Assembly: GCF_009914755.1 (NCBI RefSeq)
Contig: NC_060935.1
Length of the DNA: 64,000 nucleotides
Reading direction: 5' to 3' (one strand)
From: the human T2T-CHM13v2.0 reference genome, Homo sapiens
Part shown: piece by piece, positions 519 through 47,353 of the stretch
Position numbering within the stretch: position 1 is the stretch's first letter
Layout: each line of letters opens with the position of its first letter
Notes under the pieces: model-generated
What the model saw: the letters and a program-made list of their open reading frames with translations, nothing else
What the model was told of the DNA's origin: nothing
Databases searched by the model: none
Program-made: the position numbers and the translations under genes

Positions 519-729
519 CTTCAGCATACAAGGCCCTTCTATATATAGAATGAATTGCAAGAAGACACAGCCTGCGAGATAGAGACCAATCAAAAGGCTT
601 ATACAATTGTTCATAATTCACAAACTCACAGCAACACAAAACCACCTCTTGATTTCAAATGTTAAAGCTCTCCATCAAAATGGGTCAAGAGAGCAGGCAT
701 TAGGCAGAGCTGACAGCTCAGAGGGAAAT

Positions 730-1200
730 CGCTGCCACTCTGAACCACATCTACTCCTGTCTACCTGCAGGCCAGCAGGGACTTGAGCTTCAAAGGTGGC
801 TGCTTGCCAAGATGAGTTTATTTGAAGCTATGGCTCTGCAGCCTCAATCATTAGCCCTCTCCCCCAGACCTGATCCCTTCTATTCACCTAAGCTTTCCCT
901 CCACGCCCCAAGATAGGCCACTGGGAACCTCGGTAGACTGCTTCCTGAACAACAAAGTGCCTCATTAGCTACTTTTTAATGAGGTCACAGCCTGTGACTG
1001 CTCATTAATAGAGTGGTTAGTCAGCATCTCTAGGGGTAAAGGAGACTGAAGACAGAAGTCAGTGATAACAGAGCTCAGCCCAGGCGTAGCTGTGTTAGAG
1101 GGAGAAAGAACTTAGCAGAGACTCTTAGGCTTGTACTCTGATGTCTCCAGGGTCCCTTCCAGCTCTGAGACTATGATTCTGGAGAAGGACATCCAGAGGG
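730..1200. promoter_or_regulatory. Candidate OR enhancer/promoter, module A copy 1 (P3-promoter/P-element-like)
   Basis: Homeodomain sites TCATTAG 848-854, CTCATTAG 961-968, ACTTTTTAATGAG 971-983, CTCATTAA 1001-1008; O/E-like TCTCTAGGGG 1027-1036; 956-1008 identical to 32696-32748. Confidence 0.7.
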
Positions 1201-1616
1201 ACCAGGTCTTTGGTGGGAAGAAGTGACAACAGAGTCAAGTGATCCAAGGTTCAGAACAGCTATTGATCTAAAGATATTCTTGAAGAAATCGAATGCTCTT
1301 TAAGTTCTCTTGGATGCTTTTGTAAATGGAATTTAGCTCTTGAAACTTTTTATAATCTTGCCTTCTATAACCACAGATTCTCTCGGTATTCCTCCATGTG
1401 TCCAAGTACAGATTCTTTGTGTTATTTTCCAAGTCTTTTAAAATTGTATTTGTCCTTGGAGTTAATTCATTGGCCCTCTTCTCTCCTCCCTGTATACTGT
1501 CCCCTAGACATCCTGTCCATTCACGGGGTTCCAACACATCACTCCTGCAGAGATGAAACTTCGGCATTGACTCATATCTTATATCTCCCACCAGGATTAA
1601 TATTGGAGCCTCCTAA

Positions 1617-2064
1617 TGTTACTGAGCAAGGGCTCACTGCCCAAAGAGCATAGAAGCCAGTACCATGTCACTAGCTTTTGAGAAAAACAGCTTTATTGCA
1701 AGTCAACTGGCAAGGAAACAGAAGGAAATGCTCAAATCTGTCTCCCTGAGCTGGGGACTGGGGCAGGTTTCATAGACAGAGTAATGAGGTGTGAATGAGG
1801 TAATGCTGGGAGGCGTGATCTGACTGGATTATGCCACGGGATGATGTCAGGGCTCAATCTGATTGGATCATGTGTTGTCTGCTTGTTAATTCCGTCCCTG
1901 TTTCTTGGACTAAGCCATTAGGTTCCACTCACGATTGTGTACTTCGTTCATCTGGGCATGCTCAAATTACCTAACTTGCAACCTAGGGTCTATGGCAACT
2001 GAAAAATGACTCATTCCTTTGTTACATAAAAGTTGAACCAGATTGGTCTGGTTTCACGGTTACA
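1617..2064 (-). mobile_element. Solo LTR, ERV1/MER4-group-like
   Basis: TGTT...TACA termini, 4-bp TSD CTAA, reverse polyA signal (TTTATT near 1693); absent at the paralogous site near 33336. Confidence 0.8.
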
Positions 2065-2390
2065 CTAATTGGTCTTCCTATCTCCCAGCCTGCTGCAGAC
2101 TTACACATACAACTCATTCCAATTCATACTCTTTAGCATCCCCGGAGTTTTTTCTGAACACACGTATGATGATCTGTCATTCTCATGCTTAAAAACTCTT
2201 GATTCACTCTCATGATCAGAATAAAACTAATGTTTTTAGTGTGTCATACAAGAATCCTTATAGTCAAGTTTTAGCTTATCTTTCCAACTTCAATTTTTAT
2301 CATTCACTTATTCATTCAATTATAGTCATACTGAACTTTTTTCTTTCCCCTTATACTATGCATTTTTAGTTTCTTTAAACAGTATTTTTA

Positions 2391-8832: not shown

Positions 8833-9699
8833 ATAAAAATATACAATTTTTAATCAATCCCCTATTGATGGAATTAAGGTAATTTTCCCATTCTTTTGCT
8901 GTTAAAAATTGTAGTCCAATAAAAAACAATCATAATTTTTCCTCGCTCTAAAATTGTGATTCTGCCTGAATCACTATTTCTATCTCGTGCTGCTCACTAA
9001 CCATTTCAAAATCTTAGGGCTTCAATTCATTTGATCAACATTTGGACAAAAAATTATATCTCATACATTTTTCTTAACCATGACCAGCCTAAGATTAGCC
9101 AAAAAAAACCCCCAAATTTTATACTAAAGGAAGTCTACTTGATTGAGTCCTTTCTGTCAGCAGTTTCCTGTTTCTCATCTCAAATTTTGTTTATAATGAC
9201 TAGTCTTATGTACTTAATCATTCATTTGTTCAACACCTGAATTCTGCCATTCAAATGTATGCTTTATGAGCAGAGAGACTTCACATGTTTTGTTCATTTC
9301 TCTATCTCAGGGTCTAGAGCAATGCCTGGCATGTAGCAATTACTCAATACATATTTGTTAAATAAATGAAAAATTATTGCCATATGATAGGTTATAGTAA
9401 TATAATGTTAATGTGAGATTTTATATATATATGTTGTAACATAATATATTAATATGATTGCTAATATATGTCATCTCATCACACCAATCCTATAAAATAA
9501 GCCTTATGATCTTTGTCTAAGCCATATGGAAACTGAAACTCAGGAAGTTTGATAAATCACTAAATACCTAAAGTCAGTGAGTTTGAGAGCTGGTTTTAAA
9601 CTTAGATCACTAAGAATCCAAAAGTTTTGTGCTTTACTTTGCACAACCCTATATCCCTAGAGTATGGTTTTTCTTTTTGAATTCATCCTTTTGACATCC

Positions 9700-10340
9700 A
9701 ATATTTCTTTGGGCCCCAAAGAACAATAGATTCAAGAAAGGTCAGGTCCTCCTGAGGAAGGGAAAGAAGAGGAGCTTCGGTGAGCCCAGAAACATCAGGG
9801 AGGTGGCCGGTGGGGATAGAGGTGCCAGCCCTTCAGCTGTCCCTGAGGACAAAAGAGGCACGACTGGGAATAATTTTCTGAAAGCCAGGACAGGGAGCAT
9901 GGCCAACCCTCCTACTGTGCTCACTCACCTCTAACATGCCACTAACACACAAGGCAGCAGTGAGCAGGCTACAGCTTCAGCCATTATTAGCTCAGCTGGA
10001 ACAAGGAATAGGACTTCGCTGATTTCTCTTTTGGCTTTGCTGAAACAAAGAGAAAGCTCTTTGATTACATTTATGAAACATGTGCATGAAGGGCATGCAT
10101 GAAGCATGGAAGTCAGGCAGAGCTGAACAAGGCACATGTTCTTGTTCGACACGGGTAAGGCTTTTTGCCAAGGACCTAATTTACCAGGGGCCACTCTCCA
10201 GCTTCAGTTGCTCAACTGGACAAGGTTTGAGCAGGGTTTGTGGGATACTTAATTTTATTCCTCTGCTCACACTAGGAAGATCTTATCAGTTCCTCTCTTC
10301 TCTAGGTCTGTTTTCTTTGCCTGTATTATAAGGTAAGTGA
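9700..10340 (+). promoter_or_regulatory. Candidate OR10A5 promoter / 5' non-coding exon, module B copy 1
   Basis: O/E-like TCCCTGAGGA 9840-9849, homeodomain CCATTATTAG 9981-9990, donors GG|GTAAGG (10155) and AAG|GTAAGT (10333); homologous to 39370-39970. Confidence 0.55.
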
Positions 10341-10766
10341 GATCTAAGGCTGCAGAAGAAATAAATGACTCAGGATTTTTTTCCTAACTCTATCCTGTAA
10401 AGCTTTCCAGGTTAGAAAAATTTCAGTAGCCGGAGCTTCCATAGGACATACACCTCTTCCAGGTCTTGATTTTCCTCTGATTAATTCAGGGAAGACTTAC
10501 CTCACTAGAACATTCATGAGGCAGAGGACATCAGGAGACACTACTTCTTTAGGGAAGTTTTATGGTTACAGAAGGCCTAGGAGAGTGGGTTTCTATTCCA
10601 GGGACAGTTGCTCAGATGATTAGCAAATAGCTGCTCCTGGGGAAGTTCTAGAGGAACTGTCAAGGAGCCTGGGGGCTGGCTATGGGCCATCAGCTTCTTC
10701 AATGTCTCCCACACTGGAGACAGGTCACCAGCTCTTCTTCCCCAGTAGGTTCCAGAAGTTCTATAG

Positions 10767-19305: not shown

Positions 19306-22093
19306 GTACAAATAGTTATTTGAAAAACTTCTGACATTTATTTACTTCTGGACAAACAAATAAGTGGGAAGAGCTGTCAGTATAAACCTCTTTTAATTTT
19401 AGTCTTTATCATTAAAATTGCCTGAGTTCTTAGAACACAGAACAAACAAATTTGAATGCATTTGTGACAGTTTAATAATTTGTATGTCTCATTATGATCT
19501 TTTAATAGGAAGTTTTAAAGCCAAAGCATAATTTACTGCAAAGATAAATTAGAAAAGGCAAATAAACTTTTTAATAATATGTTATAGTGACCTGGACAAA
19601 ACTGATTATTAACTAGTAATACAATAATTAGAATATGCAACCGATTGAGAAATTAAATCCTGTGCTACATACTCGTAAGTATTTTGTCAGACATGATATA
19701 TATTTAAATGTTTCTATCAATTGCATTCCTTTTGCTGCATATATCAGTTTTTATTTAAAACAAGAAAACAATTCTCTTTCCTCCAGATTCTCATGTTAAT
19801 CAGTGCAAAATATTGCAATTTTAGTAAAAATTGTTTATTACAATGTTATTTTAGAACGGCTTATTCCTTAAACTATCGAAAATGTACTTAAAAAATCCAA
19901 ATTATGAGAATGATCAACTTCAATGGCTTCCTCGACATCCAGCTTGGCTTCTCCATGTCCTTCCTGTGACTTATCAAGAGAGGCCAGGGCCTCATTTTTG
20001 TCACTTGTAAAAGTTTCTCATGATATATCATCATCTTGAAAATTTAGACTTTTAATAGCTTATTTCATTTTTTCATTGTGTTCTCTTCCTAGCAGCTTTT
20101 TAATTTTCATATTCCTTTTGATTTTCTATGTAGAAAACATCCTTAATTTGTTCCTTGCTGATACTAGGAGTGTTTTTCAAGAGATTCAGAAAATCTCCAC
20201 CTGGTGTTCTCTTCAACTACTATTCATTATAAAGAGGCCACCATTTTGTTCTACTTCAGCAGTTTCCAGCAGAACAATTGCCTTTTGTTCCCAATAATCC
20301 TCACTGCTTGAGCCATCGGATCTTTCTTTGGTTCCTGTAACCTGAATAACATTTCATCAGCCACTTTCTCTTGGGAATCTTCCTCTGTGATCTCGTATCA
20401 ACCTTTATAGTTCATTTTTGGTTCTGGTCTGTTCCCTAGCCTGTCTTTGACAGGTCATTTCCTTTTGAGATGACCTTGCCCCTTTTCCTCTTCCTTTGAT
20501 CCCATTTTTTTGTTTGTTTGTTTTTGCCACCATGCATATATTCAGCTAGTTGTTTGTCTAGCCCTTTCGTATGCTCTAGAGATTCCCTCTTAAGTTTCTT
20601 AGCAAGCAAACAATCATAGGTCTCGGATTGTCTGCTTCTGTCAATAGTGCCCTCCATTCCCAAGATACCAAGTTCAGTGGCCACTGCATCTTAATTCTGT
20701 TCCTGCAGTACAGCACCCCATATGTTGTTAACCTTCTTTCCTCCAGAAACAGGTGGTTTCTGACTGCTCTGGCCAAACTGAAAAGACTCTGGTTTGGGAG
20801 GAGAGTTTACATATTTCCATCACTTCCACTTCCAAAGACAGCTATCATCATCTGAATCAGAAAAACTCTCTTCACTTGAATCCACACTTTCAACAACTCG
20901 GTAATGTGATACTGGTGCACATGCAGTCGCCCTGCTCTGGAAGGCCCTTATAAGCACTGTCCCCACCTAGCACTTTCCACACTTGCTGCAGCCTGTTGCT
21001 GGGTGTGACCATTATGTCGGAATCTGAGTCAGGTTGGAAAGCTGCCCATCTTCCATGTCGCTGGCCTCCAACACCATCTTCCCGTGGTGCCTATGCCTAT
21101 ATTTTAGCCAACATTATTTTCATCTCTGTTGCCTAGAAAGCCTTTAAAGATGATGTTATGTGTCCCTGTGCCCCTTTAAGGTACTATGTATTTTTGTATT
21201 TTGACTTTCATTGTGATGTGTTATAATTGATTATTTAAATATTTTATCTATTAAATTCTAAGCTTCAGTGAATAATCATTGTATCATCAGTGCTGCCATA
21301 GAAATTGAATAAATACAGACTTTCCTTTTATATCATTTAAGATTCTATCTCGTTTCATAACTTTTTATCCATGAATGTTTTCCTTTGAAACTTCACTCTA
21401 ATGTTTCTTATATTTTTTATAGTTTTTTTTTGTGGGAGTCTGTTTTATTTTTTCCAATTTTCCTGTTCTTGAAAGGGAAGTAGTCAGAATCTCCTTGGAC
21501 ACAGTCACTTTCCACAGAATTGTAGTACAATACTCCTCTCCGATCTTAATTTTGAGAGTCAGTGGATTATGCAGGTACTAAGAATCAGTTGCCAATTATA
21601 GATATGCTGGACCAAAGAGGAAACTGCTAACATTGTTTCCCACAGTCTGATTTGGCAAGAAAGAATAAGTATTACGTGATTTGAAGTGGTCTACAATTCT
21701 TACGGTGAGTGAGGGGGAAAGTGCATTAAAACAACCACACCCTATAAACATTCTCACTCATCCATTCCCCTCTATTATTTCTACTTTGAATAACTTCAAA
21801 ATAAAATACGATACAAGATCAGATTTGTTTTAGTAAATAGGCTAACAAGATATAAAATGGAACGTAAAAGAGAGGAGAAAGGTGACCTATTGCTCATTTC
21901 ACTGCTTAGGTTCTGACCACGTTTTATTGTGTCTTTATTCTTAGCCAACACAAGACCCTTCCTCTTCCAGCTGAGGTGCTGACCTTGCCTCTATCCCTGA
22001 CATTAAGAGAAAATCTGAAAAACAGATTGAGAATCTGACTTCCAATCAAGAATCTCTCTCCAGGACCACAGCTGGGGATTTATGCCCATACTT

Positions 22094-23047
22094 ATGGCTA
22101 TAGGAAACTGGACAGAAATAAGTGAATTTATCCTCATGAGCTTCTCTTCCCTACCTACTGAAATACAGTCATTGCTCTTCCTGACATTTCTAACTATCTA
22201 TTTGGTTACTCTGAAGGGAAACAGCCTCATCATTCTGGTTACCCTAGCTGACCCCATGCTACACAGCCCCATGTACTTCTTCCTCAGAAACTTATCTTTC
22301 CTGGAGATTGGCTTCAACCTAGTCATTGTGCCCAAAATGCTGGGGACCCTGCTTGCCCAGGACACAACCATCTCCTTCCTTGGCTGTGCCACTCAGATGT
22401 ATTTCTTCTTCTTCTTTGGGGTAGCTGAATGCTTCCTCCTGGCTACCATGGCATATGACCGCTATGTGGCCATCTGCAGTCCCTTGCACTACCCAGTCAT
22501 CATGAACCAAAGGACACGGGCCAAACTGGCTGCTGCTTCCTGGTTCCCAGGCTTTCCTGTAGCTACTGTGCAGACCACATGGCTCTTCAGTTTTCCATTC
22601 TGTGGCACCAACAAGGTGAACCACTTCTTCTGTGACAGCCCGCCTGTGCTGAAGCTGGTCTGTGCAGACACAGCACTGTTTGAGATCTACGCCATCGTCG
22701 GAACCATTCTGGTGGTCATGATCCCCTGCTTGCTGATCTTGTGTTCCTATACTCGCATTGCTGCTGCTATCCTCAAGATCCCATCAGCTAAAGGGAAGCA
22801 TAAAGCCTTCTCTACGTGCTCCTCACACCTCCTTGTTGTCTCTCTTTTCTATATATCTTCTAGCCTCACCTACTTCTGGCCTAAATCAAATAATTCTCCT
22901 GAGAGCAAGAAGTTGTTATCATTATCCTACACTGTTGTGACTCCCATGTTGAACCCCATTATCTACAGCTTGAGAAATAGCGAGGTGAAGAATGCCCTCA
23001 GCAGGACCTTCCACAAGGTCCTAGCCCTCAGAAACTGTATCCCATAG
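22094..23047 (+). CDS. OR10A5: Olfactory receptor 10A5 (class II OR, 317 aa)
   Basis: Intronless 7TM ORF with N5 sequon NWT, LHSPMYFFL, MAYDRYVAIC, HFFCD, KAFSTCSSH, PMLNPIIYSLRN; an in-frame ATG at 22082 would add MPIL. Confidence 0.95.
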   Translation: MAIGNWTEISEFILMSFSSLPTEIQSLLFLTFLTIYLVTLKGNSLIILVTLADPMLHSPMYFFLRNLSFLEIGFNLVIVPKMLGTLLAQDTTISFLGCATQMYFFFFFGVAECFLLATMAYDRYVAICSPLHYPVIMNQRTRAKLAAASWFPGFPVATVQTTWLFSFPFCGTNKVNHFFCDSPPVLKLVCADTALFEIYAIVGTILVVMIPCLLILCSYTRIAAAILKIPSAKGKHKAFSTCSSHLLVVSLFYISSSLTYFWPKSNNSPESKKLLSLSYTVVTPMLNPIIYSLRNSEVKNALSRTFHKVLALRNCIP

Positions 23048-32124: not shown

Positions 32125-32469
32125 GGAGGATTAGTTTGATGAGGTAAGTAAGCATCAGATCTTGAAAGTCCTCTATGCTGAAGTGTTTGAATGCTATCTT
32201 GTGAACTATGTAAATCAATTTAAGCGTTTTCAGCATGAAAAAACAATCAGATATGTATTTTGGAAAAATTACTTTGGCAGTTGTATGGCAAATGGGCCAT
32301 AAGGGGACACAGGCTATAAGACAGAGACCAGAGACTTCTGTAAATGAGCAGTTAAGAGATATGAGACCAAAACTCAGTGCAAGGAAACCCTCTTCTTAAT
32401 CTTCAGAAATTGAAGTCCCTATCAAAATAGGACAGCAGAGCAGACATGCTACCAGCTCAGAGGAAAATC

Positions 32470-32950
32470 ACTGCTGTTCTGGACCACATCTACTCCCGTC
32501 TACCTGCAGGCCAGCAGGACTTGAGCTGCAAAGGTGGCTGCTTGCCAAGATGAGTTTATTTGAAGCTATGGCTCTGCAGCCTGAGTCATTAGTCCTCCCT
32601 CCCATATCTGATCCTTTCTATTCACTTAAGCTTTCCTTCCAGGCCCCAAGATAGACCACTGGGAACCTCAGTAGACTGTGCTCCCTGAACAACAGAGTGC
32701 CTCATTAGCTACTTTTTAATGAGGTCACAGCCTGTGACTGCTCATTAACAGACTGGCTAGTCAGCATCCCCAGGGGTAGGGGAGACTGAAGACAGAAGTC
32801 AGTGATTACAGAGCCTAAGTGTAGCTGTGTTAGAGGGAGAAGGAACTTAGCAGAGACTCTGAGGCTTTTACTCTGAGGTCTCCAGGGTCACTTCCAGCTC
32901 TCAGAGACTATGATTCTGGAGAACATATTGAGGGACCAGGGCCTTTTTGG
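32470..32950. promoter_or_regulatory. Candidate OR enhancer, module A copy 2 (P-element-like), between OR10A5 and OR10A2
   Basis: TCATTAG 32586-32592, CTCATTAG 32701-32708, ACTTTTTAATGAG 32711-32723, CTCATTAA 32741-32748, O/E site TCCCCAGGGG 32767-32776. Confidence 0.72.
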
Positions 32951-35399
32951 GAGGAAGTGACAACAGAGTCAAGTGATCCCAGGCTTGTAACAGCTGTTGG
33001 TCTAGAGAGATTGTTTAGGAAGTCAAATGCTCTTCAAGTTCTCTTGGATGCTTACGGAAACGGAATATTGCTTTTGCAACCTTTTGTCATCTTGCCTTCC
33101 ATAACCATGGATTTTCTTGCTATTCCCTGTACATGATTAAGTGCAGATTGTTTGGATTATTTTCCAAGTATTTTTAAACTGATCCTGGGAGTTAATTTAT
33201 TGGCCCTCTTCTATACTCCCTGTTTACTGTCTCCTAGACATCCCGTTCATTCACAGGATTCCAACCTATCACTCCTCTGGAGATGAAACTTGGGCATCGA
33301 CTTATATCTCCCACTAGGATTAGTGCTACAGCCTCCTAATTGTATTCCCTGCCTCCAGTCATGCTGCAGATTTACACATATACCTCATTCCCATTCAGCC
33401 CTTAGTCTCCCCAGAGTTCTTTCTAAACACACGTGGCAATCTGTCTTAATCATGTTTAAATTCCTTATGAATCACCCTCATAATCAGAATGAAACCATCG
33501 TACTTAGCATGTCATACAAACCTTATATTCCAGTTCTAGTTTCTCTTTCAAATTTCAGTTCTTACCATACTCCCATCCATACATTTGAATGGGGTATGAT
33601 GAAAATAGTGCATCATACTGAACTATTTTCTTTTCCCTTATACCATGCATTTTTAATTTCTCTAAATGTGCTTTTTTGTTTCTCTCAAAAATTTGGAGTC
33701 TAAAAAGCCTTAGTTCAAATTGTGTGTCTGCTACTTACCAGATATGAAAATCACTCTGTTTCTCTCCTATTTCCTCTTCTGTGAATTGAGTGATAATATC
33801 TTGTGGATTTAATGCAAAGATGAAATGAGAATAATGAAACCTACTGTGAAGATATTAAGAGGCCAGCCATTCTGTGACAGCAGAGGTAACAGGTGGGCTA
33901 ATCAAATGATATTAGCCAACAACTAACACCTGTGGAACTTTATGACTTTTATCTATTCTTTGTTATTTTTTACATTTAAAGTAATATATCAGTTATGTAA
34001 AATTCCCAATAGGTATTTGCTATTATTCATAACACGAGTAAATTATTAGGTTCCCTCCTTTTCCCAGTGAACAGAGTAAAGAGAGGAAGTAATATGTTAA
34101 ATATGAGCTACATGTTTGTCAATAAAGTGTTATTTACTCCTCACAGGTATTAACAAGAAGTATATAATATGGCCAAGTAACAAGTAATGGGTGTCAAAGT
34201 TTGGGTTTGAATCTAAGTCTATCTGATTCCAAAATATCATGTTTAAGATAACATATTTAATCTCTAAAATATAAAGAAAGAATCTAAGAGTCTAGAAAGA
34301 TATTTGGAAGTAAAGGAATGTAATATGGACAGCCAAGAGGCTTCAGGAGGGTTATAAGAGAGAGGAAAAAAACCTTTGAGGCCAATAGACATAAATGGAT
34401 GACATATCACCATATTGTAACCTATTTCTTTGGGGTAATTGAAAGAAATGAATAGTTATTTTTTATTCTCTAATGCAAGCTCTTTATTCTCTAAATCAAG
34501 CTACTTGGAAAAGAGTACGTCTTCAACAGAAGGTAGACATTATTATTAAATCTTTATATCTTTACTCAATTCCTCTGCCTGCTATTCTTGCCTATCACCC
34601 CATACTCACCATACCAAGTTAATCCCTACATATTATTTAAGATTCAACTCTAGTGTTTTCTCTCCTATGAATCTCTCCCTGATTCCTCTAGGCAAGTCTG
34701 AGTTTGCTCTCCTTTGTACACATGTGATATCTTGTATATATAATTGTTAAGCATTGAAGACATTGAAATTGTCTCTTCATAAGCATAGAGGATACAGTAA
34801 GAGCAGTTCATCATTCTTGTTTGTATTTCTGACACCTAGTCCAGTGCCTGGCATATAGTAAGTACTCAGTAAATGACTGAAGAAATGCATAGTCCCCAAG
34901 TTGTTTCTCTAGCCTTGGCCTGTTCCATTCTCACTGAAAAGTGAAAATTGTCTCTGAGACATTTCTGCCTAGGTGTCAAGGCACATGTCAGACAACAACA
35001 AGCTCTCAGACAAAATTTTCTCCCATTCTCTAAATCATGAAAGAAAAATGTCTTATTACATATTTATTGCTTTTACCCCACTTTTCATTGACATATTCTT
35101 TCATTTAATCAGTGAATATTCATACTGAATCCTGAAGGTACAACAATGAACAAGGTGCATCCCTCTAAGAGCTCCTGGCTCCTTAAGTGAGAAAACGTAA
35201 ATACACAGATACAGACAAAAAGACAGTGCCATGGAAAAGGCTTTACTGTATTATAATTTTGCATTGATAAGTGCTATCAAAGAAGTGTTCGATCAGTCTC
35301 CTAATCCTATTAATTCCTCCTTGGCAACATCTTCTTACTCAAACCTTGGTTAAATACCCATTTTCACTGCCACTGTCATGAGTCTAGCCAGTGGATCTT

Positions 35400-36698
35400 C
35401 TCAGAGAAACTTCTGCCTGGGCATCCAGGCATTTCCATACATCTTCTGAAATCTAGGCAGAGGTTCCCAAACCTCAATTCTTGGTTTCTGTGCGCTCGCA
35501 GGCTCAACACCACGTGGAAGCTGCCAAGGCTTAGAGCCTGCACCCTCTGAAACCACGACCCAAGCTCTAGGTTGGCCCCTTTCAGCCATGGCTGGAGTGG
35601 CTAGGATGCAGGGCACCAAGTTCCTAGGCTGCACACAGCATGGGGACCCTGGATCCAGCCCATGAAAACATTTTCTTCTAGGCCTGTGATGGGAGGGGTT
35701 GCCATGAAGCCCTCTTACATGCCCTGGAGACATTTTCCCCATTGTCTTCTGGATTAACATTCGGCTCCTCGTTACTTATGCAAATTTCTGCAGCCAGCTT
35801 GAATTTCTCCTCAGAAAATGGGTTTTTCTTTTCTATCACATTGTCAGGCTGCAAATTTTCTGAACTTTGCAGTTCCAATTTTCTAAACTTTGCAAGGATG
35901 CTCTGCTTCCCTTATAAAACTGAATGCTTTTAACAGCACCCAAGTCACATCTTGAATGCTTTGCTGCTTGGAAATTTCTTCCGCCAGATACCCTAAATCA
36001 TCTCTCTCAAGTTCAAAGTTCCACAAATCTCTAGGCCAGGGGCAAAATGCCACCAGTCTCTTTGCTAAAACATAACAAGAGTCACTTTTGCTCCAGTTCC
36101 CAACAAGTTCCTCATCTCCATCTGAGACCACCTCAGCCTGGACTTTATTGTTCATATCACTATCAGCATTTTTGTCAAGGTCATTCAACAAGTCTCTAGG
36201 AAGTTCCAAAGTTTCCCACATTTTCCTGCCTTCTTCCGATCCCTCCAAACTGTTTCAACCTCTGCCTGTTACCCAGTTCGAAGTCACTTCCATATTTTCA
36301 GGTATTTTTCAGCAATGCTGAGCTATACTGGTGCAAATTTACTGTATTAGTTCATGTTCACACCGCTGATAAAGACATTCCTGAGACTGGGCAATATACA
36401 AAAGAAAGAGGTTTAATTGGACTTACAATTCCACATGGCTGGAGAAGCCTCACAATCAGGCAGAAGGCAAGGAAGAGCAAGTCACGTCTTACGTGGATAG
36501 CAGCAGGCAAAGAGAGAGAGCTTGTGCAGGGGAATTCCTCTTTTTAAAACCATCGGATCTCATGAGAGTAATTCGCTATCACAAGAACAGCATGGGAAAG
36601 AACTTGCCCCCATGATTCAATTACCTCCTACTGGGTTCCTCCCACAACATGTGGGAATTCAAGATGAGATTTGGGCAGGACACAGCCAAACCATATCA
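35400..36698 (-). mobile_element. THE1 MaLR: 5' LTR (36343-36698) and truncated internal region
   Basis: TGTATTAGT...CCAAACCATATCA LTR; adjacent internal sequence stops near 35400. Confidence 0.88.
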
Positions 36699-37350
36699 GT
36701 TACTCTTTTCTCCCCTTTTCATACTGTACTCTTTGTAAAGAGGTCACCATGATAAGCCCACACTCAAAAGGTAGGGAGTAATGTTCCACCTCCTTATGGG
36801 CAAAGTAACTACATAAATTATGTTGAATTCTTCCAGACAGACTTGTTGACTCTTCCTCATTTATTTCTTTACTTAATCATTTATTTACATCATATATACT
36901 CATAAACATTTATTTTATATGTTGGCTTATAAACCAATACTACCTTATTTGTTGCTCAAATATTCCGGCTTTGGCTACTGGGAGCTCTTCATTTGGTTTC
37001 TGTGTTCCTTTGACAAACCCAATAATGTGGGGTTTTTTTTTTTTCATCACTTTCTTACTTTCTGCATTACAAGAGTCTCCAGGATCATCTTGCATATTTC
37101 CTAACTCAGTCCTAGAATCAGCCATTTCTCCAGGGAACATGAGTTCCTTCTAATGGAAGACTGTATTAGAAAGAAATATTTGGGTGTTAGGTGTCCATAT
37201 TAAGTTTTTACATAAATATTAATGCATATCCCCAGTTACATTGTATTCCATTGTAATCTACGGAAAATCTGCAAGTTTTGAATCAGTCTCCTATTAATGA
37301 AATCAAGATTTTTTTTTTACATTATTTTGCAAGTAAAATGTGCTGCATTA

Positions 37351-38294
37351 GCAAAAGTATGAACAGAGTAAACAGACATCCTATAGAATGGAAGAAAATA
37401 TTTGGAAATTAGGCATCTGATAAAGGTCTAATATCCGGCATCTATAAGGAATGTAAACAAATTTATGAGTAAAAACCAAAGAACTCCATTAAAAAGTGGG
37501 CAAAGAATATGAACAGACACTTTTCAAGAGAAGACATATATGCAGCCCAAAAGCACATGAGAAAAAAGCTCAATATCATTAGAGAAATGCAAATCAAAAC
37601 CACAATGAGATATCATCTTACACCAGTCAGAATGGCCATTATTAAAAAGTCAAAAATTAACAGATGCTGGCAAGGTTATGGAGAAAAGGGCATGCTTATA
37701 CGCTGTTAACAGGAGCGTAAATCAGTTCAACTATTGTGGAAAGCAGAGTGACAATTCCTCAAAGAGCTAAAAACAGAACTACCATTTGACCTAGTAATCC
37801 CATTACTGGTTATATACCCAAAGGAGTACAAATCAGTCTACCACAAAGACACATGCATAAGTATGTTCATTACAACACTATTCACAATAGTAAAGACATT
37901 GCATCAACTTAAATGCCCATCACTGGCAGATTGGATAAAGAAAATGTGTTACATATATACCATGGAATATTATGCAGTCATAAAAAAAGAACAAGATCAT
38001 GTCCTTTGCAAGAAAATGGATGGAGCTGGAGACCATTATCCTTAGAAAACTAATGCAGGAACAGAAAACCATATACCATATATTCTCATTTACAAGTGGG
38101 ACCCAAATGATGAGAACATATGGATACAAAGACAGGAACAACAGACACACTGGGGCCTACTTGAGAGTGGAAGGTGGAAGGAGGGAGAGAATCAGGAAAA
38201 AATAACTAATGAATACTAAGCTTAGTACTTGGGTGACAAAATAATCTGTACGGAAACCTCCCATGACATATACCCTTGAATTTAAAAGTTTTTT
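37351..38294 (+). mobile_element. L1 3' fragment (older L1PA/L1PB-like)
   Basis: ORF2 C-terminal remnants [26 protein letters not shown], plus 3'UTR. Confidence 0.9.
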
Positions 38295-38326
38295 AAACAA
38301 TGGTGCTACATTTAAAAAATAATATC

Positions 38327-38650
<324 letters not shown>

Positions 38651-39369
38651 CTAGCTTTTAAAAGCATGGATCAATTTAATATCATTTTATCTCTATCTTG
38701 TATTGTTCACTAGCTATTTCAAAATTAGGTAGCCTCAATTCATCTGAACACCCAAGAGACTGGGGATGATGTCTCCTACATTTTCCTTAACAATGACCAG
38801 AATAGAACCAAATAACAACAGCAAAAATTCTTACGCCAAAGTCTACATGTCTGCGTCCCACTTTCCGTGCAGTTTCCTATTTCTTCCTTCTGGATTCAAT
38901 AACAGCTATATTAGTCATATGTTCTTAGTTGTTATCTTATAATTTATCTAATTGTAGTTCACATTTCCCCATTAAAATGTAAGCTTTATGAATACAGGAA
39001 CCAAACCTGTTTTTGTTTTACTTCCATAACCTAATGCTTAGGAGAGTATTTGACATTTAGTAGATACTTAATGAACAATTATTCAGCGTGCAATAGGTTT
39101 AACTAATATAAGCCATTTAATTTCATCATAACACTAACTCTGTAAAATAAGAACATTTGTTGTCTTTAAGAAATGTGGAAATCAAAGCTCAGCGAGTTTA
39201 ACAAAATTGCTAAGCATTATGAGCCAGAGTTCCAGTGCTGAGATTAAATTTAGGTTGCTCTGACTTCAAATTCTTATAGTGCTTCTCTACACAATGCTGC
39301 TTCCCCTAGCCTGGAGTTTGGTTTTTCTTTCTTGAATTTTATCCTGTTGGCATCTGAAATTCATTATAT

Positions 39370-39970
39370 TCTCAAAGGATGGTAGATTCAAACAAGACCA
39401 GGTCCCCTGAGGAAAGGAAGGAAAAGCCTATAAACAGCTGGGAAAAAATACAGGTCTCATCCCTTCGACTAGCCCCAAGAACAAAAGAGGCACAGGTGGG
39501 AACAACTCTCCCAAAACCAGGACTGGGAGCATGGCCAAACTTCATAGTGAGCTTACTTGCCTCTGACACACAAGGCAGCAGTGAGCTGGCTACAGCTCCA
39601 GCCATTAATAGCTCAGCCAGGACAGGGAATAAGACTTCCCTGGTTCTTCTTTTGGCTTTGCTGAAACAGAAATAGAGCTGTTATATTACATGCATGAAGG
39701 ACATGCATGAAGCATGGATGTCAGCCAGAGTTGAACAAGGCAGATGTTCCTGTTGGACACAGGTAAGCCTTTTTTTTTTTTTTTTTTTTTTTTTTCCACC
39801 AAGGACTGAATCTACCAGAGGCCACTCTCCAAGTTCAGTTACTCAGCTGCACAAAATATGATCAGAGTTTGGATACCTAATTCTATTCTTATGTTCACAC
39901 TGGGAGATCTCATCAGTTCCTCTCTCCTTGGGCATCAGTTTACTCTATGTCATAAGAAAAGTGAGATCTG
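39370..39970 (+). promoter_or_regulatory. Candidate OR10A2 promoter / 5' non-coding exon, module B copy 2
   Basis: O/E-like TCCCCTGAGGA 39403-39413, homeodomain CCATTAATAG 39602-39611, donor CAG|GTAAGC (39763). Confidence 0.6.
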
Positions 39971-40271
39971 GGCTCACAAAAAGACTGATATTACCCAGGC
40001 TTTTTCCAATTCTGTCCTCTAAAGTTTTCTGAGTCAGGAAGCTTCCAGGCCCTACAACCTTCACAGGACATATACCCCCTTCAGGTCTTGATTTTCGTCT
40101 AAGTAACACAAAAAAGACTTGCCTCAGTGGAACATTTATGAGATGGAGAACATCAGGGCAAACTACTACTTTACAACAATTCTACAGTCAGAGAAGGCCT
40201 AGAAGAGTGGGTTCCAGGTCCTGGGACAGTCAGGTGATTAGCAAAGGGATGTTCCTAGGGAAGTTCTAGAG

Positions 40272-40489
40272 CAAGTTTGTCCAACCTGTGGCCCATGGGC
40301 CACATGCGGCCCAAGATGGCTTTGAATGTGGCCCAACATAAATTCATAAACTTTGTTAAAACATTATAAGATTTTTTTCCTTTCTTTTTTGCTTATAAGC
40401 TATCATTAGTGTTAGTGCATTTTATGCGTGACCAAGAAATTTTTCTACTTCCAATGTGGCCAGGGAAGCCAAAAGATTGGACACCCCTG
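40272..40489 (-). mobile_element. MER30 (hAT-Charlie MITE)
   Basis: CAAGTTTGTCCAA...TTGGACACCCCTG TIRs; 8-bp TSD TTCTAGAG; empty site at 10646-10653. Confidence 0.92.
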
Positions 40490-41304
40490 TTCTAGAGGAA
40501 CTGGCAAGAACGCTGTGGGCTGGCCATGAGCTGCCACCTTCTGCAATGCCTCTCCCACACTGGAGACGGGGCACTAGCTTTTCTTCCCCAGTAGTTTTCA
40601 GAAGTTCTGTGGAAATCCCAGCAAGTGTTTCTGCCCCTCCTTCTCCCCAGTCTTCTCCGCCAGCACCACATACAACACATCTGTCATGAGGCTTCTAGTT
40701 AAAGTGCGGTTCTAACAAAAAAAAAAAGAACAGTCATTGAGAAAAAAAAATTCTAATAGTGAATAAAAACTCCAAGAAGAATGAACTTTGTAGAACTCAT
40801 GTAATCCTTTATACAATCAGCTGTCCAAAAACATGTATGAATAGCTTACTTGGTAAAAACACTGGGCTTCTTCTTATAAAGATGACTAAGACAGTTTATA
40901 CTATGGAGAAGTTTAAAGAGTGAGATATATATTGGTAGTAGAAATATCTGAATAATTAAAAACATTTTTAAAGGATAGAGGAAAATAGAGAAGATGACTA
41001 ATCCTATCTGGAAGTATCACATGACAGACAGAGCTGAGTTTTGAGGATCTGAAGGAGTCAGCCAGACAGAGGAGGGGATGTGCAGGCAGAAATGATGTCA
41101 CATGAAAAGGCAGAGGCAAGCAAAAAGAACTCTGTTCAGTAAATAGTAAGAAGCTCAGCAGTGAAGCAGAAGAAGGAGAGATGGATGTGGGAGACCAAAG
41201 ATGACATTTCGGGTGTAGCTTAAGTTCATTTCATATGGCTTGTTGAAAACCCCAATTTTGTAATTATAAATTTTTCTGTTTTAAGTTCAGGCTCTGCCAT
41301 TTAT

Positions 41305-41600
41305 TTTCCATATAATTACAAAATTTCTTATATATATAAATATATATTTATATTCATAAATATGTATTCTCATATATAAATATATATATTGTAAGATGAA
41401 CATATATGTATATATAAATATACATATATACATAAATGAACATTTATGTTCATCTTACAATGAATATATATTTCTATATATGATAATATATATGAATAAA
41501 AATATATATTTATATATTTATATATTTTCATATAATTACAAAATTTCTTATATATAAATATATATTTATATATACTTATCTAGATATATATTTATATATT
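41305..41600. repeat. AT-rich low-complexity tract with internal direct and inverted repeats
   Basis: (TA)-rich; CATATAATTACAAAATTTCTTATATAT occurs twice; 17-bp inverted repeat. Confidence 0.85.
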
Positions 41601-42299
41601 TAGAAAATTTGGAAATCCAGAAAAATAAAAATAATAAATCCCCTCCTTTTACCACTTGAAATAGGTCACTTTTACATTTTGCATATAGCCTTTCAGTCTT
41701 TTTATATAGCATATATTTTTAAAATTGTAAATGTATCACATGTGTGCAGGCTGTGTTATTTTTCATTTAATATTATATGGTGATTATTATATGACAGCAT
41801 TAAATGTTCTTCAAAAATGACTTTAAAGATTACAGGTTATTTCCTTAAATACATGCTTCATAATTGAGCCATTCATTCTGTTAATTATAATTTTCAATTT
41901 ATAACTATAATAGTCAGCACTGAACAAACAATTGGCTATGCTTACTAAATATTCACACTGATTCAATAATTCTGACCCACAAATATACAAAGATTTCATT
42001 GAAATATGACTGGGAAATTTCTATTTTTCAGAGACAATTTTTAAATAAATTAAGAAGATAATTGTCTTTTATTATTTTAAAAAATGTGTTCAAAGCTTAT
42101 TGCAACTCTATATTTAGCAGATTTAAAAAAATCATTAGCAATTCTTTTTATCAGTTTTTTATGTGAGTAAATATGGAGTTTTACAGGGGACATAATCATT
42201 TCTGTCAACAAAATCATGTAATGATGAAAGTATTTGCAAACATCCAAATGACCCTCCATAGCAGAGGATTCCATTGCTAGGAAAATCTCCCACCTTGGT

Positions 42300-43070
42300 C
42301 TTTTATATCCAGACCTGCTTCCCTCTTGTCCCCACCCTCTCGTTAGTCACTGGCAATCACTAATCTCTTTTCCATTCCTATAATTTTGTCATTACAGAAA
42401 TGTTATGTAAGTGGAATAATAAAATATGTGTCTGTTTTATTCACTCAGAATTATCTGTAAATTCATTCATGTTATTGCATGTATCAATAGTTCATCCTCT
42501 CTATTGCTGAGTTTACTAAGGTATAAATGCATCATAATTTGTTTCATCATCTGGGTTTTTAACAATTTGAGGCTATTATGAATACAGTACTGAGGAATAT
42601 TCATGTTTTTATATGAACATAGTCTTCATTTCTCAGGGATAAATACCCAAAGGTACAATTACTGGTTGTACCACAGTTACATGCTTAGTTTTTTTAAAGA
42701 ACTGTCAAACTGTTTTCTGCAGTGGCTATACCAAGCTTGTCCAACCCTGCGGGCTGCATGCAGACCAGGACGGCTTTGCATGTGGCCCAACACAAATTTG
42801 TAAACTTTCTTAAACCTTTATGAGATTTCTTTTTTTTTAATTTTAGCTTATCAGCCAATTCTTCTTCCAATGTGGCCCAGGGAAGCCAAAAGATTGAACA
42901 TCTCTGATACTATTTACATTTTCATGAGCAATGTATGAATGATCCAATTCATCAAATCCTCACCAGCATTTGGTGTTGTCACTTTTTTTTTAACCCATTC
43001 TTATATGTGTGTAGTGACATATCATTGGGGTCTTTATAAGCATATATGCATTTCCCTAATGGTGAATACT
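42300..43070 (-). mobile_element. Old L1M 3' fragment with nested MER30 (about 42732-42906)
   Basis: Antisense L1M motifs interrupted by CAAGCTTGTCCAACC...AAGATTGAACA. Confidence 0.75.
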
Positions 43071-43619
43071 TTATTTTTTTGTTTGGTTGTGGTTTATAGG
43101 GGGTATTTTTGTTTTGTTTTATTTTGTTTTAATCATTTTCCAGTTTGGTTACTTATCAGAACTTTTCTCTATTTTCAGAATTAAAAAAAAATCTTTCATT
43201 AAAATAAAAACATGTTTGTGTGAATATATTAAAATTTTCTTTCATACTTAGGGATTCTTTTGGTTCAAAAAGTCATCTCTTCCATTAGATCAGAGACATT
43301 TATTCTTCCTCTGGTACTTCTTTGGATATTATTTCTACCCCTCTCCATTCTTTCTGTCATTCTGGAATACCTGTTATAGTGATTTTATTTCTTGTATTTT
43401 ACTTCATTATTCCTCTTATAATTGTTATGTTTTCATAATTTTTCCCAGTAACTTGGGTGTAATTTTTCAAATTTGTATTCTAATTGACTCAGTTTTCTTA
43501 AGTTTCTGGCATTTTGCTCCACAAGGTTTAACTTCAATAATCATGGCTTTGTTTTGTCCCCCAGGTGGTCTTTTCTGGCCCCACACTGTCATTTTCATGA
43601 GTACTTATTCAATATTCTA

Positions 43620-43921
43620 TATTATTATTATTATTATTAAGACAGAGTCTCCTTCTGTCACCCAGGCTAGAATGCAGCGGTGCAGTCTTGGCTCACTGCA
43701 ACCTCTGCCTCCCGAGTTCATGCAATTCTCGTGCCTCAGCCTCCCAAGTAGCTGAGATTACAGCCATGTGCCACCACGGCCAGCTAATTTTTGTATTTTT
43801 AGTAGAGAGGGGGTTTCAGCATGTTGGCCAGGCTGTTTTCAAACTCCTGGCCTCAAGTGATCCTCCTGCCTTGGCCTCCCAAAGTGCTGGGATTACAGGC
43901 ATGAGCCACCGTGCCTGGCCT
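43620..43921 (-). mobile_element. AluS-like with (ATT)n tail
   Basis: Antisense Alu; TSD TATTCAATATT. Confidence 0.9.
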
Positions 43922-44157
43922 CGATATTCAATATTTTATAGGGCTTTGTTGAGAGTAAGTAATAAAGACAATTTAATGTCTTTCAACTTCCTTTCAGACT
44001 CTTGTTTTTGAAAAGGGAAACAATTGATTTGATATCTTGGATTTCATCTCATTAACCTAAAGTGTTTTGTCTTCATATCTCCCATAACCTTTTCTGTTTA
44101 CTTATGGGCTGGCTTGCCTTGGAATGACAGTAAGAGAGTTTCTATTTTTTACTTTAC

Positions 44158-44458
44158 TTTTTTTTTCTTTTTTGTTGAGACTGAGTCTCACTCTGTCACC
44201 CAGGCTGGAGTGCAGTGGCACAATCACAGCTCAATGTAGCCTCAACCTCCCGAGCTCTGGTGATCCTCCCATCTCAGCCTCCTGAGTAGCTAGGACAACA
44301 GGCATATGCCACCACAACTGGATATTTTCTCCATTTTTTGTAGAGATGGGGTTTCGCCACCTTGCTGAGGCTGGTCTCAAACTCCTAGGCTCAAGTGATC
44401 CACCTGCCTCAGGCTCCCAAAGTCCTGGGATTACAGGCGTCAGCCACCACGCCTGGCC
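44158..44458 (-). mobile_element. AluJ-like
   Basis: Antisense Alu with J-type CAATCACAGCTCA. Confidence 0.9.
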
Positions 44459-47074: not shown

Positions 47075-47353
47075 ACCTTAGGAAGTAAGGCTACATTTTA
47101 CTGGATGAGAAACAATCAGTCCCAGATTTGAGATTCCTCTCTGCATCTTTCCACATCTCCAATAAGATGAAGTCCTGTTGCTGAAATGGCTTTTGGAAAG
47201 CTGAGTGGAGAGAAAGGAGCAGAGAAGTAGTTTCGACCTAGCACCACCAACTATGAAAACTCCTCTGCCTGCCCATTGTAGACTTACATTGTTTTCCTTG
47301 TTTCAACTGGTATGACAGCACTTCTGTGGCCAACTATTTCCAGGTGTTATATT

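What the first reader, a model, noticed from the sequence alone, without database searches (positions are those of the whole stretch)
730..1200. Duplicated candidate human OR-choice element (copy 1) carrying the H/P/P3 homeodomain motif
Seen: this non-repeat block recurs at 32470-32950 (core offset 31740). It is visibly more similar than neighbouring duplicated DNA and has a 53-bp identical core (956-1008) containing TACTTTTTAATGAG, with three further TCATTA sites and an O/E-like site nearby. Known: AACTTTTTAATGA is the Lhx2/Emx2-type 13-mer shared by the mouse H element, P element and P3 promoter, and mouse P3/P4/P2 (Olfr713/714/17) correspond to OR10A5/A2/A4. The human core matches 12 of 13 bases. 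Inference: this copy, 21 kb upstream of OR10A5, is the human counterpart of the P3 promoter or a Greek-island-type enhancer. I cannot verify whether it has been functionally described in human.
Basis: partly seen in the sequence, partly recalled or inferred. Interest (0 to 1): 0.85.

Follow-up and report, generated by a model that had tools for sequence, protein, structure and literature searches.

The report
Human twin of P enhancer upstream of OR10A5
This short stretch 21 kb upstream of the smell-receptor gene OR10A5 is a well-preserved twin of the human counterpart of the mouse "P" receptor-choice enhancer, and probably matches the mouse P3 gene promoter; it is a sensible but largely expected find and untested in people.

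Summary
Window 622-1617 recurs at 32370-33340. The 720-1240 core is 88.6% identical, against 66-78% for the other collinear non-coding pieces of the same old OR10A5/OR10A2 duplication. Both copies share a 53-bp identical run (956-1008) carrying TACTTTTTAATGA (12 of 13 bases of the published H/P/P3 extended homeodomain motif), four TAATGA sites at matching positions, and a second 54-bp identical run.

A supplementary table of Iwata et al. 2017 places the human region syntenic to mouse P at hg19 chr11:6876957-6878266. That converts to window ~32137-33446, which is copy 2, not this copy.

Copy 1 is the paralogue on the OR10A5 (P3-orthologue) side. In mouse, the sequence published as "remarkably similar" to P is the P3 promoter. 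By synteny and paralogy, copy 1 is therefore most likely the human counterpart of the P3 promoter module. I could not align it to mouse DNA.

Whether it still starts transcripts is open:
- No 5' exon is annotated for OR10A5.
- No good splice donor follows the block.
- Its O/E site is weaker than copy 2's.
- OR10A5 is barely expressed in human olfactory mucosa.

This is a new member of a known kind, of modest interest.

The parts
622..1617 (+). Copy 1 of the duplicated block, at the 5' edge of the OR10A5 duplication unit
   Evidence: Local alignment to 32370-33340, 82.7% over 1004 columns. Only 3 genomic matches to its core.
720..1240 (+). High-identity core of the block
   Evidence: 465 of 525 columns identical (88.6%). 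It holds two perfect runs of 53 bp or more; permutation P for two such runs is 0.0008. Jukes-Cantor distance is about 0.12, against 0.26-0.45 for neutral flanks.
791..844 (+). 54-bp run identical in both copies, holding an NFI-type palindrome TGGCTGCTTGCCA at 797-809
   Evidence: The NFI consensus TGGC(N5)GCCA is recalled, not taken from a call.
848..853 (-). Homeodomain site TAATGA, conserved in copy 2 at 32586
956..1008 (+). 53-bp run identical in both copies: three TAATGA sites plus a 7-bp inverted repeat GTCACAG-C-CTGTGAC at 984-998
962..967 (-). Homeodomain site TAATGA
970..982 (+). Extended homeodomain 13-mer TACTTTTTAATGA, 12 of 13 bases of the H/P/P3 motif. 13 contiguous bases (971-983) match the published 21-mer.
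   Evidence: Motif is printed in PMC5638857 and PMC7804114; the 21-mer is printed in PMC8213819.
1002..1007 (-). Homeodomain site TAATGA
1027..1036 (.). Degenerate O/E-like site TCTCTAGGGG, 19 bp from the last homeodomain site. Copy 2 has the better TCCCCAGGGG at 32767.
   Evidence: The consensus TCCCNNGGGA is recalled; YYYCARRRR, from PMC5638857, is matched only by copy 2 at this position.
1617..2065 (.). Dispersed-repeat insertion that interrupts copy 1. It is not part of the element; homology to copy 2 resumes at 2065.
   Evidence: 475 first-look candidates genome-wide, about 70-75% identity..
32370..33340 (+). Copy 2, the human region syntenic to the mouse P element
   Evidence: Iwata 2017 Suppl. 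Data 1, row P: hg19 chr11:6876957-6878266, which converts to window about 32137-33446 (coordinate anchors).
9836..10154 (+). Paralogue, in the OR10A5 unit, of OR10A2 exon 1 (39468-39762), with the splice donor retained (CGG|GTAAGG). An alternative candidate first exon and promoter for OR10A5.
22094..23047 (+). OR10A5 coding exon, the presumed target gene
   Evidence: Hub annotation. Barnes 2020 gives a single-exon model.

Best explanation
Copy 1 is the OR10A5-side member of an old duplicated pair of P-type control modules: a homeodomain cluster plus an O/E-like site. An ancestral unit [module ... upstream exon ... OR coding exon] was duplicated in tandem, giving the OR10A5 unit (622-23304) and the OR10A2 unit (32370-47333).

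The module of the OR10A2 unit (copy 2) is the human orthologue of the mouse P enhancer. The module of the OR10A5 unit (this finding) sits where mouse has the P3 (Olfr713) promoter, the sequence published as closely resembling P.

Proposed mechanism, inferred from mouse work and not shown in human: LIM-homeodomain protein Lhx2 (and Emx2) bind the three to four TAATGA sites, including the extended 13-mer, and Ebf/O-E proteins bind the flanking O/E-like site. Together they raise the probability that OR10A5 is chosen in cis. I commit to the promoter-type mode, as in mouse P3: transcription starting a short way downstream of the cluster (around 1040-1130), from a far-upstream untranslated first exon.

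Shown here: the duplication, the above-neutral conservation, the motif architecture, and the synteny. Inferred: factor binding, use of a start site in the block, and activity in human neurons.
For: 1. The whole OR10A5 and OR10A2 units are collinear duplicates. Eight non-coding pieces besides this block align at 66-85% (seven pieces over 100 bp at 66-78%). The block core is 88.6% identical.
2. Within the core, two perfect runs of 53 bp or more cover the homeodomain cluster and an NFI-like palindrome. Permutation P for two such runs is 0.0008. This points to constraint on both copies rather than uniform decay.
3. Iwata 2017 Suppl. Data 1 maps mouse P (mm9 chr7:114190700-114192100) to hg19 chr11:6876957-6878266, 9090 bp beyond HsOR11.4.4 (the OR10A5 coordinates). 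That interval is copy 2. Monahan 2017 supp file 1 gives P as mm10 chr7:107047186-107048586, which lies between Olfr713 and Olfr714.
4. [quoted passage not shown] P was identified by similarity to an OR promoter (PMC12547500). The 13-mer is in H, P and the P3 promoter (PMC7804114). P has three homeodomain sites with the central one extended (PMC4721658 figure legend), and copy 1 has the same layout.
5. Distances fit. Mouse Olfr2 start (107006058) to Olfr713 start (107031174) is 25.1 kb. Human OR6A2 start (window -23889, hub table) to the copy 1 core (980) is 24.9 kb.
6. Gene structure hint. OR10A5 has AT where OR10A2 has the AG acceptor of its coding exon. Similarly, mouse Olfr713 uses a different, more upstream acceptor than Olfr714.
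Against:
- No 5' exon of OR10A5 is annotated in RefSeq (hub table) or in the RNA-seq-guided HAVANA models of Barnes 2020.
- A crude donor matrix finds no splice donor of 6 bits or more in 1010-1617. The only two hits (1789, 1800) lie inside a later repeat insertion.
- A nearer candidate first exon with an intact donor exists at about 9836-10154.
- 21 kb from the ATG is four times the mouse distance of 5 kb.
- This copy's O/E site has 2 mismatches where copy 2 has 1.
- OR10A5 is almost silent in human olfactory mucosa: 12 values of 0-3, against 2.7-73 for OR10A2. The table header was not seen.
- The synonymous distance of the two coding regions (0.133) is as low as the block's distance (0.12) and far below the flanks (0.26-0.45). 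Gene conversion could therefore explain part of the similarity.
Confidence: 0.45

Rival explanations
1. Copy 1 is a distal enhancer only: a second P-like element about 8.8 kb upstream of the real OR10A5 promoter at about 9.7-9.84 kb. This would mirror copy 2, which lies 6.7 kb upstream of the RNA-seq-supported OR10A2 first exon. It would bind the same factors but start no mRNA.
For: - Copy 2 lies well upstream of OR10A2 exon 1 (39468-39762).
- The paralogous exon in the OR10A5 unit keeps a good donor (9.2 bits, against 11.2 for the OR10A2 donor).
- No donor is found downstream of copy 1 before the repeat insertion.
- No upstream exon is annotated.
Against: - In mouse, the sequence at this syntenic position is a promoter with a 559-bp first exon.
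- OR10A5 expression was too low for its 5' exons to be annotated, so absence of a model says little.
Confidence: 0.3
2. Copy 1 is a decaying relic with no function of its own in humans. It looks conserved only because non-allelic gene conversion from the functional P orthologue (copy 2) has refreshed it.
For: - The block distance (0.12) equals the synonymous distance of the coding regions (0.133), and both are far below the flanks. That is the signature of conversion between the two units.
- The O/E site is degraded in copy 1.
- OR10A5 is nearly silent in olfactory mucosa.
- A repeat has inserted at 1617.
- A third copy upstream is already truncated.
Against: Two separate perfect runs of 53-54 bp fall exactly on the factor-site clusters, with 13 differences in the 111 bp between them. 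Under uniform decay this is unlikely (P = 0.0008). It would require two recent micro-conversions rather than one tract.
Confidence: 0.2
3. The resemblance to the H/P/P3 motif is chance, inside a duplicated stretch with no regulatory role.
For: - The 13-mer at up to 1 mismatch also occurs at two unrelated places in the window.
- TAATGA is not enriched overall.
- 7% of 500 simulated windows contain one cluster of three or more TAATGA sites.
Against: - The paralogue is the published syntenic counterpart of mouse P in all seven placental species tested.
- Conservation is above neutral and concentrated on the motif cluster.
Confidence: 0.03

Closest known systems
Mouse P3 (Olfr713) promoter
   Same: - Position: upstream of the P3 orthologue and about 25 kb from the divergent I7/OR6A2 start site.
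- Close sequence relative of the P element.
- Carries the extended homeodomain 13-mer (12 of 13 here) with further TAATGA sites and an O/E-like site.
   Different: - 21 kb from the ATG rather than 5 kb.
- No annotated first exon and no convincing splice donor.
- No direct alignment was done.
- No transgene or transcript evidence in human.
Mouse P element (enhancer of 10 OR genes of the P cluster; Bozza 2009 and Khan 2011, known here only through citing papers)
   Same: Three TAATGA sites with the central one extended, plus a neighbouring O/E-like site. 88.6% identical to the human P orthologue over the core.
   Different: The syntenic human P is copy 2 (between OR10A5 and OR10A2), not this copy. 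This copy's O/E site is weaker.
Mouse H element core
   Same: Three TAATGA sites close together (within 92 bases in H; within 46 bases here). The same extended motif; 13 contiguous bases match the 21-mer used as the x21 choice enhancer.
   Different: Different chromosome and cluster, and no sequence homology outside the motif was examined. H is bound by Lhx2 and Ebf in mature neurons, whereas mouse P is not.
Greek Islands (Monahan 2017)
   Same: Intergenic element in an OR cluster with homeodomain and O/E motifs.
   Different: The defining Lhx2/Ebf co-binding is absent even at mouse P. [quoted passage not shown]

Membership tests
Orthologue of the mouse P enhancer | Lies between the P3 and P4 orthologues and is the target of the mouse-human whole-genome alignment of P | tested here: not met
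   Iwata 2017 Suppl. Data 1 maps P to hg19 chr11:6876957-6878266, which is window about 32137-33446 and so copy 2. Copy 1 lies upstream of OR10A5.
Orthologue of the mouse P enhancer | Three homeodomain sites with a central extended 13-mer, plus an O/E-like site | tested here: met
   TAATGA at 962, 977 and 1002. The 13-mer matches 12 of 13 bases. The O/E-like site at 1027 has 2 mismatches. Layout as in the PMC4721658 figure legend.
Orthologue of the mouse P enhancer | Deletion lowers expression of linked OR genes in cis | not testable with these tools
   Needs genetics in olfactory neurons.
Counterpart of the mouse P3 (Olfr713) promoter | Syntenic position: upstream of the P3 orthologue and downstream of the divergent I7/OR6A2 gene | tested here: met
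   Gene order and distances: 24.9 kb in human against 25.1 kb in mouse (hub table).
Counterpart of the mouse P3 (Olfr713) promoter | Close sequence similarity to the P element of the same species | tested here: met
   88.6% identity over 525 columns to the human P orthologue. The mouse statement is in PMC6744719.
Counterpart of the mouse P3 (Olfr713) promoter | Direct sequence alignment to mouse chr7:107030879-107031732 (mm10) | not testable with these tools
   No mouse genome or printed P3 promoter sequence was available. Bozza 2009, Vassalli 2011 and Lane 2001 are not held.
Counterpart of the mouse P3 (Olfr713) promoter | A transcription start within about 150 bp of the homeodomain sites and a spliced first exon | tested here: inconclusive
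   No annotated exon (hub table). No donor of 6 bits or more in 1010-1617 with a crude matrix recalled from memory. No TATAWA in 700-1260. OR10A5 expression was too low for annotation.
Greek Island (Monahan 2017 definition) | Ebf and Lhx2 co-bound in mature olfactory neurons inside an H3K9me3 domain | not testable with these tools
   No human data were available. The mouse P orthologue of the paralogue is listed Ebf No, Lhx2 No, H3K9me3 Yes, 'Not included'. PMC8213819 says the same.
Greek Island (Monahan 2017 definition) | Composite motif of juxtaposed Lhx2 and Ebf sites | tested here: inconclusive
   The matrix is not printed in the text. The nearest homeodomain site (1002-1007) and O/E-like site (1027-1036) are 19 bp apart, and inserting even 2 bp impairs the composite in vitro. 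The mouse P3 promoter scores 7.2, between the permissive cut-off of 5 and the stringent cut-off of 10.

The most novel reading that the evidence does not exclude
The two human modules are an evolutionarily frozen promoter/enhancer twin pair. One ancestral choice element was duplicated together with its receptor gene. One copy kept or gained start-site activity (P3/OR10A5), while the other became a cluster-wide enhancer (P). Selection, helped by gene conversion, keeps their factor-binding cores base-for-base identical. The reason would be that choice of OR10A5 depends on homotypic pairing of the two look-alike modules, through the same Lhx2/Ebf/Ldb1 platform on both.
Probability: 0.12. Interest if true: 0.6.

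Novelty: new member of a known kind. Interest (0 to 1): 0.33.

Why it matters
Almost everything known about cis-elements for odorant-receptor choice comes from mouse. This locus offers a defined human pair: a catalogued P orthologue and its promoter-like twin. Their binding-site cores are identical, but their O/E sites differ and their linked genes are expressed very differently (OR10A2 robust, OR10A5 nearly silent in the Barnes 2020 table). That gives a natural experiment on what makes such a module effective, and a small fragment (about 850-1150) that can be tested directly in existing reporter-mouse assays. It does not change the current picture, because conservation of P and its likeness to the P3 promoter were already published.

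Tried and rejected
- Primary papers not held: Bozza 2009, Vassalli 2011, Lane 2001 and Markenscoff-Papadimitriou 2014. What I say about them comes from citing papers. Lane 2001 compared exactly these mouse and human clusters and may already describe this non-coding homology; I could not check.
- No mouse or other mammalian DNA was reachable, so there is no direct alignment, no tree, and no test of conversion against selection.
- Supplements of PMC6744719 gave no P coordinates. Its pipeline predicted only one human element, on chr7, not this one.
- The 13-mer as stand-alone evidence was rejected. There are 4 hits at up to 1 mismatch, two of them unrelated, and TAATGA is not enriched.
- A coding or RNA-gene explanation was rejected. 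Copies differ by indels of 1, 2, 5, 2 and 3 bases in the core. No ATG-started ORF of 50 aa or more overlaps 720-1240. No Rfam match was found; the only hit, at E = 0.63, is far below its gathering score.
- The splice-donor scan found nothing usable in either copy. The two hits in copy 1 sit in a dispersed repeat.
- Literature searches for a human description found no functional study of this element: the 13-mer (5 papers), OR10A5/OR10A2 promoter (8 papers), human Greek Islands (243 papers, 25 listed), and OR10A5 with LHX2/enhancer/ATAC (586 papers; none of the 15 listed contains OR10A5).

Full report
**The observation**

The sequence at 730-1200 is as described.

- A local alignment extends the duplicated block to 622-1617 <-> 32370-33340: 1004 columns, 82.7% identical.
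- The stated 53-bp identical core (956-1008 = 32696-32748, offset 31740) is exact.
- There is a second identical run of 54 bp at 791-844.
- In the 720-1240 core, 465 of 525 columns are identical (88.6%).
- The core is not an interspersed repeat. Searched against the whole genome it finds 3 places: itself, copy 2 (89%), and a truncated relic about 6.4 kb upstream of the window.

**Context: an old duplication of whole gene units**

Sensitive self-comparison shows that 622-23304 and 32370-47333 are collinear duplicates.

- Besides this block and the coding exon, eight non-coding pieces align. Seven are longer than 100 bp and 65.7-78.1% identical; one 96-bp piece is 85%.
- One piece (9656-10656 <-> 39310-40274, 71%) contains the first exon of OR10A2.
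- The block therefore stands well above the neutral level of its own duplication.
- Jukes-Cantor distances are about 0.12 for the core and 0.26-0.45 for the flanks.
- The two coding regions are 95.4% identical, with synonymous distance 0.133 and dN/dS 0.17.
- The coding synonymous distance is as low as the block's and much lower than the flanks. Gene conversion between the two units has therefore probably acted on both the coding exon and the block. Raw identity alone does not prove purifying selection.
- The differences inside the core are not spread evenly. Two perfect runs of 53 bp or more are expected in only 0.08% of permutations of the same 60 differences. The runs cover the homeodomain cluster and an NFI-type palindrome. 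That argues for constraint on these sub-blocks in both copies.

**Motifs**

- TACTTTTTAATGA (970-982) matches the published extended homeodomain sequence AACTTTTTAATGA at 12 of 13 bases.
- Thirteen contiguous bases (971-983) match the 21-mer choice enhancer printed in PMC8213819.
- Four TAATGA sites (848, 962, 977, 1002) sit at the same aligned positions in copy 2.
- The layout of three sites with the central one extended is what the PMC4721658 figure legend describes for mouse P.
- The motif alone is weak evidence. There are 4 hits at up to 1 mismatch against 0.56 expected, and two of them are unrelated sites. TAATGA is not enriched overall, 62 against 65 expected.
- A cluster of three or more TAATGA within 50 bp occurs only at the two copies. 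Simulation gave a mean of 0.074, and 7% of 500 simulated windows had at least one.
- The O/E-like site beside the cluster is TCTCTAGGGG in copy 1 (2 mismatches to the recalled consensus TCCCNNGGGA) and TCCCCAGGGG in copy 2 (1 mismatch). Only copy 2 fits YYYCARRRR at that position.

**Which copy is the P element?**

- Iwata et al. 2017 (PMC5638857; I read Supplementary Data 1 in full) list the region syntenic to mouse P in seven placental mammals.
- For mouse the entry is mm9 chr7:114190700-114192100, 10076 bp past an OR at 114179650-114180624.
- For human the entry is hg19 chr11:6876957-6878266, 9090 bp past HsOR11.4.4 (6866902-6867867). Both ORs belong to group OGG2-71.
- HsOR11.4.4 ends at the OR10A5 stop codon. 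Using GRCh38 anchors from Barnes 2020 (OR10A5 CDS start 6845683 = window 22094; OR10A2 exon 1 start 6863057 = window 39468), the human P interval is window about 32137-33446. This assumes a constant hg19-to-GRCh38 shift over 10 kb.
- That interval is copy 2.
- Monahan 2017 supplementary file 1 (read in full) gives P as mm10 chr7:107047186-107048586. This equals the mm9 interval shifted by the Olfr713 offset.
- Mouse P therefore lies between Olfr713 (CDS from 107036157) and Olfr714 (first exon 107070981). This mirrors copy 2, which lies between OR10A5 and OR10A2.

**What copy 1 is**

- P was found through its similarity to an OR promoter (review PMC12547500).
- The Olfr713 promoter interval used by Monahan 2017 is chr7:107030879-107031179. 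It sits at the start of a 559-bp first exon, 5 kb upstream of the ATG.
- Copy 1 is the paralogue of the human P orthologue and lies upstream of the P3 orthologue.
- Its distance from the divergent OR6A2 start site (24.9 kb) matches the mouse distance from the Olfr2 start to the Olfr713 start (25.1 kb) (hub table).
- The most economical reading is that copy 1 corresponds to the mouse P3 promoter module.
- This rests on synteny, paralogy and published statements. No mouse DNA was available for a direct alignment.

**Promoter or enhancer in human?**

Against a promoter:
- No 5' exon of OR10A5 is annotated in RefSeq or in the RNA-seq-guided HAVANA set.
- A crude donor matrix, recalled from memory, finds nothing of 6 bits or more in 1010-1617 or downstream of copy 2. 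The only hits in copy 1 (1789, 1800) lie in a dispersed repeat inserted at 1617-2065.
- The OR10A5 unit retains a paralogue of OR10A2 exon 1 with a good donor at about 10154.

For a P3-like gene structure:
- OR10A5 has AT where OR10A2 has the AG acceptor of its coding exon. Similarly, mouse Olfr713 uses a different acceptor from Olfr714.

Bearing on function:
- OR10A5 is nearly silent in human olfactory mucosa: 12 values of 0-3, against 2.7-73 for OR10A2. The table header was not seen. This explains the missing annotation, but it also fits a weakened element.

My estimates are promoter-type module 0.45, distal enhancer only 0.30, conversion-maintained relic 0.20, and chance 0.03.

**Relation to Greek Islands**

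- Mouse P was in the earlier 35-element list used by Iwata 2017.
- P is 'Not included' among the 63 Greek Islands of Monahan 2017: Ebf No, Lhx2 No, H3K9me3 Yes. PMC8213819 notes the same lack of binding.
- The label 'Greek-island-type' is therefore not supported, even for the orthologue of the twin.
- The composite motif could not be scored, because the matrix is not in the text. [quoted passage not shown]

**Other readings excluded**

- No Rfam family matches.
- No ATG-started ORF of 50 aa or more lies in the core.
- The copies differ by frame-breaking indels.

**Novelty**

- Already in print: conservation of P across placental mammals, including the human interval (a supplementary table), and the P/P3-promoter resemblance in mouse.
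- Not found in any paper I could search or read: a description of the human twin upstream of OR10A5, the base-perfect cores shared by the two human copies, or any functional test in human.
- Lane et al. 2001, which compared these very clusters, was not available and may bear on this.
- Verdict: a correct and well-read observation, a new member of a known kind, of modest interest.

Noticed in passing
Outside the window: own genome C11:6875469-6875649 (window about -6531 to -6351); locus L003:1425-1605: A third, truncated copy of the block's 5' part. It aligns to window 644-824 at 86.7% (78.6% to copy 2) and then breaks off into L1-like sequence. It lacks the homeodomain core.
   Followed up: partly
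window 22094-23047 vs 46163-47074: The OR10A5 and OR10A2 coding regions are 95.4% identical with synonymous distance 0.133. The surrounding duplicated non-coding DNA has distance 0.26-0.45. This suggests gene conversion between the two genes.
   Followed up: partly
window 46121-46165: OR10A2 has an in-frame upstream ATG 42 bases before the annotated start, with no stop between (MATGNWTRISEFIL-MS...). The extension matches the N-terminus of OR10A5, including an N-W-T glycosylation-type motif. The annotated 303-aa protein may be N-terminally short.
   Followed up: partly
window about 21999-22000 vs 46029-46030: The AG splice acceptor of the OR10A2 coding exon is AT at the paralogous position in OR10A5. 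OR10A5 must therefore be spliced differently or not at all there. A conserved polypyrimidine-AG lies about 55 bp further upstream in both genes.
   Followed up: no
window 984-998 (and 32724-32738): A perfect 7-bp inverted repeat GTCACAG-C-CTGTGAC lies between the central and third homeodomain sites and is identical in both copies. No factor was assigned.
   Followed up: no
window 54898-54910 (-) and 19565-19577 (+): Two further 12-of-13 matches to the 13-mer. GACTTTTTAATGA lies inside a multi-copy repeat just downstream of OR10A4. AACTTTTTAATAA lies next to the PHAX pseudogene. They look incidental.
   Followed up: no
Iwata 2017 Suppl. Data 1, rabbit row for P: In rabbit, the mouse P interval maps to a 28-kb span that contains an OR gene (distance 0). 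This is what a split alignment onto two paralogous modules flanking the OR10A5 orthologue would look like. It hints that the twin arrangement is older than primates.
   Followed up: no
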